Origin: Mobula hypostoma | Taxonomy: Eukaryota | DNA length: 64,000 nucleotides | Reading direction: 5' to 3' | NCBI RefSeq assembly: GCF_963921235.1 | Contig: NC_086097.1 | Location: 91,514,001 to 91,578,000 of the forward strand | In this document: positions 30,291-31,879 of the stretch, in pieces | Position numbering within the stretch: position 1 is the first letter of the stretch | Layout: every line of letters starts with the position of its first letter | The notes under the pieces: generated by a model | The model's input: only the letters and a program-made list of their open reading frames with translations | What the model was told of the DNA's origin: nothing | Databases searched by the model: none | Position numbers and translations under genes: made by a program

Positions 30291-31879
30291 CTCACAACAC
30301 GCTGCAGGAACTCAGCAGGTCGGGCAGCATCCGTGGAAACGAACAGTCGACGTTTCGGGCCGGAACCCTTCGTCAGGACTGTAGAGTGAAGGGGCAGAGG
30401 CCCTATAAAGAAGGTGGGGGGAGGGTGGGAAGGAGAAGGCTGGTAGGTTCCAGGTGAAAAACCAGTAAGGGGAAAGATAAAGGGGTGGGGTAGGGGAAGC
30501 AGGGAGGTGATAGGCAGGAAAGGTGAAGAAGGAATAGGGGAAAACACAATGGGTAGTAGAAGGAGGCGGAACCATGAGGGAGGTGATGGGCAGCTGGGGG
30601 AGGGGGCAGAGTGAATCTGGGATAGAGGAAGGGAGGGGAAGGGAATCACCAGAAGCTGGAGAATTCTATGTTCATACCAAGGGGCTGGAGACTGCCTAGA
30701 CCGTATATGAGGTGTTGCTCCTCCAACCTGAGTTTAGCCTCATCATGGCAGTAGAGGAGGCCATGTATGGACATATCTGAATGGGAGTGGGAAGCAGAGT
30801 TGAAGTGGGTGGCTACTGGGAGATCCTGTCTGTTGTGGCAGACGGAGCGGAGGTGCTCGATGAAGCGGTCCCCCAATCTGCGTCAGGTTTCATCGATGTA
30901 GAGGAGGCCACACCAGGAGCACCGGATGCAACAGATGACCCCAACAGACTCACAAGTGAATTGTTGCCTCACCTGGAAGGACTGTTTGGGGCCCTGAATG
31001 GTGGCAAGAGAGGAGGTGTAGGGACAGGTGTAGCACTTGCGCTTACAGGGATAAGTGCCAGGTGGGAGATCCGTGGGGAGGGACGTGTGGATCAGGGAGT
31101 CGTGGAGGGACCGATCCCTGTGGAAAGCAGAGAGGGGCGGAGAGGGAAAGATGTACTTAGTGGTGGGGTCCTGTTGAAGGTGGCAGAAGTTGTGGAGGAT
31201 AATGTGCTGGATCCGGAGGCTGGTGGGGTGGTAGGTAAGGACAAGGGGAACTCTGTCCCTATTGTGGTGATGGGAGGATGGGGTGAGGGCCGAAGTGCAG
31301 GAAATGGAGCAGATGCGGGTGAGGGCATCATTGATGACAGCAGAAGGGAAACCACGATCCTGAAAGAAAGAGAACATTTGAGATGTCCTGGAACGGAAAA
31401 CCTCATCCTCGGAGCAGATGCGGCGGAGACGGAGGAACTGGGAATAGGGAATGGCATTTTTGCATGTGGCGGGGTGGGCAGAGGTATAGTTGAGGTAGTT
31501 ATGAGAGTCAGTGGGCTTGTAGAAGATGTCAGTGGATAGTCTGTCTCCAGAGATGGAGACCGAGAGATCGAGAAAGGGGAGAGAAGTGTCCGAGATAGAC
31601 CAAGTGAATTTGAGGGCTGGGTGGAAGTTAGAAGTCAATGAAATTGATGAGCTCAGCATGGGTGCAGGAAGCAGCACCAATATAGTCATCAATGTAGCGA
31701 AGGAAAAGTTGGGGAGCGGTACCAGAATAGGATTGGAGCACAGACTGTTCCACATAGCCAATGAAGTGGCAGGCATAGCTGGGGCCCATGCGAGTTCCCA
31801 TAGCTACACCCTTAGTCTGAAGAAAGTGGGAAGAGCCAAAAGAGAAGTTATTGAGTGTGAGAACCAGTTCCGCCAAAGT
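30291..31879 (-). mobile_element. Penelope-like element (Neptune type), 5'-truncated, frameshifted
   Basis: GVAMGTRMGPSYA, LRYIDD, VICCIRCSWCGLLYIDET motifs with a frameshift and a stop. Perfect 15-bp TSD TTGTTATCCACTTCA at 30276-30290 and 31880-31894. Confidence 0.95.
30343..30382 (-). ncRNA. Minimal type I hammerhead ribozyme, sense in EXD2 pre-mRNA
   Basis: Minus strand acagtc-CTGACGA-a-ggg-ttccgg-ccc-GAAAC-GTC-gactgt: 6-bp helix I, 3-bp helix II, intact core; predicted cut between 30349 and 30348. Confidence 0.88.

What the first reader, a model, noticed from the sequence alone, without database searches (positions are those of the whole stretch)
30343..30382. Intact hammerhead ribozyme in sense orientation inside an EXD2 intron
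Seen: complete CUGACGA/GAAA/GUC core with a 6-bp helix I and 3-bp helix II, ~460 nt upstream of the 29884 acceptor on the transcribed strand. The core is intact although the host ORF has a frameshift and a stop. Established: Penelope-like elements carry minimal type I hammerheads whose palindromic helix III favours dimeric cleavage. Inference: it could cut nascent EXD2 RNA, perhaps by pairing with abundant Penelope transcripts. Intactness of a 40-nt motif may also be chance.
Basis: partly seen in the sequence, partly recalled or inferred. Interest (0 to 1): 0.7.

Follow-up and report, generated by a model that had tools for sequence, protein, structure and literature searches.

The report
Penelope hammerhead relic in ray intron
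The small self-cutting-RNA motif is real, but it is the standard tail of a broken, very abundant jumping gene that landed in an intron of a devil-ray EXD2 gene, and it is likely an inert passenger rather than a regulator of that gene.

Summary
The motif is real: 30382-30343 (-) is a minimal type I hammerhead, sense to a Mobula EXD2 intron, 464 nt before the acceptor. It is the 3' pseudo-LTR motif of a 5'-truncated Penelope-like insertion (30291-31879, 15-bp target duplication) with a frameshift, a stop and a decayed GIY-YIG. The class was described in 2014. A role in EXD2 is poorly supported. Family depth is about 1e5 times single-copy depth. The insertion looks absent in a relative about 96% identical in this intron. 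A second copy with the same core sits antisense 1 kb away. Neutral decay leaves roughly a quarter of copies intact. The monomer has no helix III and folds into a dead hairpin; no sense partner lies in the window. Published Penelope hammerheads do not cut alone and cut weakly as dimers or with element protein. An RNA-like run holds spliced EXD2. The scan reported such motifs before, in this genome and in sharks.

The parts
30343..30382 (-). Minimal type I hammerhead motif (copy B), sense to EXD2; predicted cut 30349/30348
30291..31879 (-). PLE copy B: 5'-truncated Penelope-like element (end of RT, linker Zn motif, GIY-YIG, 3' pseudo-LTR with the hammerhead and a 52-nt tail); 5-nt deletion frameshift near 31630, stop at 30885-30883, GIY-YIG Tyr and Gly changed
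30276..30290 (+). Target-site duplication of copy B, perfect 15 bp, 3' side
   Evidence: run X17 record 11 stops aligning at 30290
31880..31894 (+). Target-site duplication of copy B, 5' side
29628..29884 (-). EXD2 coding exon, 257 nt, phase 0 to phase 2
   Evidence: spliced contig in run X9
38446..38790 (-). EXD2 first coding exon (ATG to donor); the host intron is 38445-29885
29276..29313 (+). Second minimal hammerhead (copy A), antisense to EXD2; core letters kept, G10.1-U11.1 wobble, two CpGs lost
27099..29405 (+). PLE copy A: younger 5'-truncated element, 633-codon stop-free RT + GIY-YIG frame, 14-bp target duplication (27085-27098, 29406-29419); 78% identical inverted partner of copy B across the exon
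44340..44800 (+). PLE copy C, 3' fragment with a broken hammerhead core (ends approximate)

Best explanation
The motif is the minimal hammerhead in the 3' pseudo-LTR of a 5'-truncated, decaying Penelope-like insertion, and it is likely a neutral passenger that does not measurably cut EXD2 pre-mRNA. Shown: element anatomy, 15-bp target duplication, ORF decay, very high family abundance, a spliced EXD2 contig. Inferred: the copy arrived by target-primed reverse transcription starting in the tail just downstream of the ribozyme, so even truncated copies carry the motif; it inserted after the split from organism C; it is intact because too little time has passed. Predicted: when EXD2 is transcribed the lone motif cannot close helix III, its core pairs with its own cleavage triplet, it has seconds before the acceptor appears, and about 1 kb later the antisense copy A can sequester it; the intron is spliced out normally.
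For: Element and TSD. Decay: 8 of 164 conserved residues changed in B, versus 3 of 164 in A. Abundance: summed depth 1.3-3.1 million at the motif versus 13.8 on unique intron in DNA run X1 (ratio about 1e5-2e5; the tool warns depth is no copy number). Lineage: X17 record 11 follows the intron with 12 differences in 289 and leaves it exactly at the TSD edge 30290 with 36 unlike letters; X5 record 18 runs 24 letters into the element. Neutral expectation of an intact core about 0.25 (0.12-0.63 over the grid). In the window 1 of 3 motif copies is perfect, 1 keeps the core in antisense, 1 is broken. Folding: dead hairpin -16.2 versus open core -12.2 kcal/mol, open-core probability 3e-4 to 9e-4 in 5 of 5 contexts; double hammerhead -23.3 versus -32.4 for two monomers. 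No other minus-strand motif in 64 kb. Literature: single min-HHR no detectable cleavage, dimers low (PMC4209133); Anolis PLE hammerhead cuts only with element protein and no RNA-seq ends at the cut site (PMC11167929); slow intronic ribozymes do not affect splicing (Fong 2009 as cited in PMC10919898). X9 holds a 1348-nt contig covering just 29627-29885 without differences.
Against: All 5 CpGs of the motif survive while at least 6 of 14 in 30650-31000 are lost (binomial 0.06, Fisher 0.13). The outer helix I pair is A-U here whereas 92% of laid depth has another letter at 30343, so this copy has a sixth pair many relatives lack. Nearest-neighbour energies ignore Mg2+, core tertiary contacts and proteins. 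Family-like sequence is about 8400 times deeper than the exon in the RNA-like run. A spliced contig shows presence, not efficiency. The empty-site reading rests on one contig per organism whose onward letters I did not see.
Confidence: 0.83

Rival explanations
1. Assisted cleavage: in cells expressing the family (for example germ line), the PLE protein binds the retained tail, or a family RNA forms a double hammerhead in trans, and the motif would cut a fraction of nascent EXD2 RNA and lower output.
For: Core, helix I and tail are intact. A PLE hammerhead was shown to be protein-assisted in vitro (PMC11167929). Family frames stay open: copy A has 633 stop-free codons and Mobula relatives are 87-94% identical. 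Family-like sequence is abundant in X9. Tandem retrozymes are under-represented in Xenopus introns (preprint 10.64898/2026.07.22.740005).
Against: That assay used 500 nM protein, 5 mM Mg2+ and 2 h; polymerase needs under 10 s for 464 nt at the mammalian rate quoted. Trans dimers are predicted to form dead duplexes (-37.5 and -33.8 kcal/mol). The protein-binding part in the Anolis element extends further past the ribozyme than the 52-nt tail kept here (a different clade).
Confidence: 0.07
2. Any effect on EXD2 comes from double-stranded RNA, not catalysis: copies B and A form a 1.2-kb, 78% inverted repeat around the 257-nt exon, which would favour A-to-I editing, exon skipping (frameshifting) or back-splicing.
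For: Arms 27740-28978 and 31873-30652; predicted duplex of 1040 bp; tails lie 406 nt and about 222 nt from the splice sites. The parallel with inverted Alu pairs is recalled, not from a call.
Against: The exon is present in the X9 contig and in both annotated Mobula proteins examined. No back-splice joint among the 15 joints shown (843 not shown). Copy A looks absent in organism B, so it cannot be an old function.
Confidence: 0.08
3. A domesticated intronic ribozyme under purifying selection, like the conserved RECK-type intronic hammerheads of amniotes.
For: Sense orientation, 5 of 5 CpGs kept, 6-bp helix I.
Against: Apparently absent in organism C at about 4% intron divergence; no helix III; CpG retention not significant, and less so given three copies (0.17-0.5).
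Confidence: 0.02

Closest known systems
Minimal hammerheads (min-HHR) of metazoan Penelope-like elements (Cervera and De la Pena 2014, PMC4209133)
   Same: Core without helix III, extra nucleotide between 9 and 10.1, G10.1-C11.1 pair, palindromic 15.2-16.2, in the pseudo-LTR, mostly single copies of truncated elements.
   Different: Helix II is 4 bp (7-8 bp in the Schistosoma families described); the host is a ray and the family looks far more numerous than the 4,000-9,000 motifs reported for coelacanth and Xenopus.
Neptune-type EN+ Penelope-like elements (PMC8557442)
   Same: RT, then a CX2-5CxxC linker motif, then a C-terminal GIY-YIG with internal cysteines; hammerhead in the terminal repeat.
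   Different: Clade not tested by a tree; both copies are 5'-truncated with a single pseudo-LTR and clear target duplications.
Poseidon element of Anolis (PAc) hammerhead (PMC11167929)
   Same: PLE terminal hammerhead upstream of the reverse-transcription start (tail).
   Different: Other clade; activity shown there only with protein; none measured here.
Conserved intronic ribozymes: RECK-type hammerheads (PMC6155905) and the CPEB3 HDV-like ribozyme (PMC10919898)
   Same: Self-cleaving motif in the sense strand of a vertebrate intron.
   Different: Those are conserved across amniotes or mammals; CPEB3 cuts alone with a 2-3 min half-life and lies 9.9 kb before its exon. This one is young, multicopy, predicted inactive alone and 464 nt from the acceptor.

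Membership tests
PLE minimal hammerhead | Conserved core C3-A9, G12-A14, A15.1, U16.1, H17 | tested here: met
PLE minimal hammerhead | Extra nucleotide between 9 and 10.1; G10.1-C11.1 pair | tested here: met
   A30369; G30368-C30357 (definition)
PLE minimal hammerhead | No helix III loop, palindromic 15.1-16.1 | tested here: met
   30353-30350
PLE minimal hammerhead | Lies in the terminal repeat of a PLE | tested here: met
   about 270 nt after the GIY-YIG stop, 52 nt before the TSD
PLE minimal hammerhead | Self-cleavage as dimer or with protein | not testable with these tools
   folding only
EN+ Penelope-like element | Single ORF, RT then C-terminal GIY-YIG with CCHH | tested here: met
   Copy A: weak RVT_1 (2e-5) and GIY-YIG (5e-4) hits, both below Pfam cut-offs, motif seen; B is 79-82% identical to A in protein; B alone gave no Pfam hit
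Neptune clade | CX2-5CxxC linker motif | tested here: met
   present in A and B (definition)
Neptune clade | RT phylogeny | not tested
   no tree built
Non-LTR retrozyme | Non-coding tandem units each with a type I hammerhead | tested here: not met
   single motif per strand locally, attached to an ORF (definition)
Domesticated intronic hammerhead (RECK type) | Orthologous conservation across distant species | tested here: not met
   organism C contig leaves at the TSD edge (one contig, inferred empty site)

The most novel reading that the evidence does not exclude
With about 1e5 family copies and perhaps a quarter intact, ray pre-mRNAs carry thousands of latent hammerheads; Penelope protein or RNA expressed in the germ line could switch them on in trans and cut host introns such as this EXD2 one, a retroelement-driven, transcriptome-wide cleavage load.
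Probability: 0.06. Interest if true: 0.75.

Novelty: new member of a known kind. Interest (0 to 1): 0.1.

Why it matters
As found, little: one more copy of a motif class described in 2014. If assisted cleavage of host introns were real it would give PLE hammerheads, whose in vivo role is still unclear (PMC8557442), a host-side effect. This locus would be a handy test case because sense and antisense copies flank one exon and related organisms seem to differ in which copies they carry.

Tried and rejected
Rfam at gathering threshold: 0 matches in the window. Own-genome search: no genome held, so no genome-wide sense/antisense count. Run search: no RNA holder on record; RNA labels are guesses. 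Read-end pile-ups: none, but all 4 runs laid were contigs, which cannot show ends, strand or level. No X9 cover on parts of the unique intron: not evidence. Family-wide core conservation could not be read: 40 of 121 difference rows were shown; 3 shown rows fall in the motif and none in the core, which proves nothing. Joints inside the repeat (15 of 858 shown) were set aside as repeat cross-mapping. PMC3365414 held no passage on ribozymes. Look-ups of earlier findings by sequence and by place were empty. Rejected: chance motif, retrozyme, cis dimer with copy A (it is on the opposite strand).

Full report
Observation. The 40 nt at 30382-30343 (-) form a type I hammerhead motif: helix I of 6 perfect pairs, complete core, an extra A between positions 9 and 10.1, helix II of 4 pairs (one U-G) with a 4-nt loop, and only a 4-nt palindrome in place of helix III. 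The predicted cut is 30349/30348, 464 nt before the acceptor. My descriptor found 2 hits in the window against a mean of 0.11 in 200 simulated windows (22 of 200 with one, 0 of 200 with two). Rfam found nothing.

Host gene. The exon 29884-29628 encodes 86 residues identical to EXD2 proteins named Mobula birostris and M. hypostoma. Four coding exons map to the minus strand; the host intron is 38445-29885. The motif is therefore in the pre-mRNA sense.

The element. The motif lies about 270 nt after the stop of an RT + GIY-YIG frame and 52 nt before the element end. Copy B spans 30291-31879 between perfect 15-bp duplications and is 5'-truncated within RT. It has a 5-nt deletion, a stop in a CpG context and changes in both halves of GIY-YIG; 8 of 164 well-conserved residues differ, judged against 12 other rows (copy A and 11 of the 120 listed relatives). 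Across the exon lies copy A (27099-29405, +), with a 14-bp duplication, 633 stop-free codons and its own hammerhead, antisense to EXD2, whose core letters are kept but with a G10.1-U11.1 wobble. A third fragment near 44340-44800 has a broken core and a fourth, near 46270, is tail only. The linker Zn motif suggests Neptune type; no tree was built.

Abundance and age. Four of 24 listed runs were laid at 85% likeness on 29250-31000. In DNA run X1 unique intron has depth near 13.8 and the motif 1.3-3.1 million, a ratio near 1e5-2e5; the tool warns that this is no copy number, so I take only the order of magnitude. In organism C (X17) a contig follows the intron with 12 differences in 289 letters and leaves it exactly at the duplication edge 30290, as an empty site would. 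In organism B (X5) a contig runs 24 letters into copy B (under the tool's 31-letter bar for bridging), while another leaves the window exactly at 29406, the edge of copy A's duplication, with 279 unlike letters. I infer B is shared by organisms A and B only, and A is younger still; each rests on one contig whose onward letters I did not see.

Is intactness surprising? At six CpG rows in B's body, 6-26% of family depth carries the deaminated letter (mean 0.17). With six critical CpG strand positions and nine other sites at 3%, a neutral copy keeps a working core about one time in four (0.12-0.63 across assumptions). Against this reading, B keeps 5 of 5 motif CpGs while at least 6 of 14 are lost in 30650-31000 (binomial 0.06, Fisher 0.13; 0.17-0.5 for one of three copies), the count uses only the 40 of 121 rows shown, and B has a sixth helix I pair that most family depth lacks. 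This is a weak hint chosen after the fact, not evidence of selection.

Could it cut? The monomer cannot close helix III. Because position 7 is C, core positions 5-8 pair with 15.2-17, giving a dead hairpin 4 kcal/mol below the open core; open-core probability was 3e-4 to 9e-4 in 5 of 5 contexts. The double hammerhead scored -23.3 against -32.4 for two monomers, and the best dimers are dead duplexes. These energies omit Mg2+, tertiary contacts and proteins, and I had no active control. No second minus-strand motif exists in the window. The complement of copy A's motif appears 1035 nt downstream and can pair with B (-132 kcal/mol for the tails, about 1040 bp for the ORF arms). In print: a single min-HHR showed no cleavage and dimers or trimers little (PMC4209133; parts 1-2 of 4 of the text; supplements not read); the Anolis PLE ribozyme cut only with element protein, was dispensable for insertion in vitro and left no RNA-seq ends (PMC11167929; passages and half a section); slow intronic ribozymes did not affect splicing (Fong 2009, not read; as cited in passages of PMC10919898). 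Run X9 (RNA is a guess) holds a 1348-nt contig matching only 29627-29885, with 360 letters before it, about the length of the upstream exon, consistent with normal splicing; it also holds much family-like sequence of unknown strand.

Comparison and novelty. All four sequence features listed for metazoan PLE min-HHRs are met. It is not a tandem retrozyme (preprint 10.64898/2026.07.22.740005, passages) nor a conserved RECK-type intronic ribozyme (PMC6155905, passages). PMC8557442 was read in passages. A search for Penelope-like, Neptune, hammerhead and shark listed 20 of 21 papers, none by title on elasmobranch PLE hammerheads; that is one search of an open-access library. Earlier notes of this scan report the same motifs in this genome and in sharks, one with 5 of 21 cores intact; I did not check their windows.

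Verdict. Real motif, known class, likely neutral passenger (0.83). The most interesting surviving reading is protein- or RNA-assisted cleavage of host introns in cells where the family is active (about 0.06-0.07). A duplex effect of the inverted pair on the exon is about as likely and needs no catalysis.

Noticed in passing
window 27740-28978 (+) and 30652-31873 (-): Two PLE copies form a 78% inverted repeat of about 1.2 kb around a frameshifting 257-nt EXD2 exon; candidate for editing, skipping or circular RNA, apparently only in organism A.
   Followed up: partly
window 27099-29405 (+): PLE copy A keeps 633 stop-free codons and seems absent in organism B: the family was active recently.
   Followed up: partly
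window 30374-30371 with 30352-30349 (-): With C at position 7 the core can pair with its own cleavage triplet; all three local copies have C7, so this may be a built-in off state of the family.
   Followed up: partly
window 46257-46310 (+): PLE tail only, no hammerhead upstream.
   Followed up: no
window 33409-36124 (-): Fragmented endonuclease + RT frames that look like a LINE (L2/Rex-like, recalled) in the same intron; many other LINE fragments occur in the window.
   Followed up: no
window 44790-45130: CpG-rich stretch right after PLE fragment C and upstream of the first coding exon; possibly the EXD2 promoter or first exon.
   Followed up: no
proteins P0110, P0126: Database proteins named as ray host-gene isoforms are mostly this PLE ORF: likely annotation artefacts or exonised copies.
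   Followed up: no
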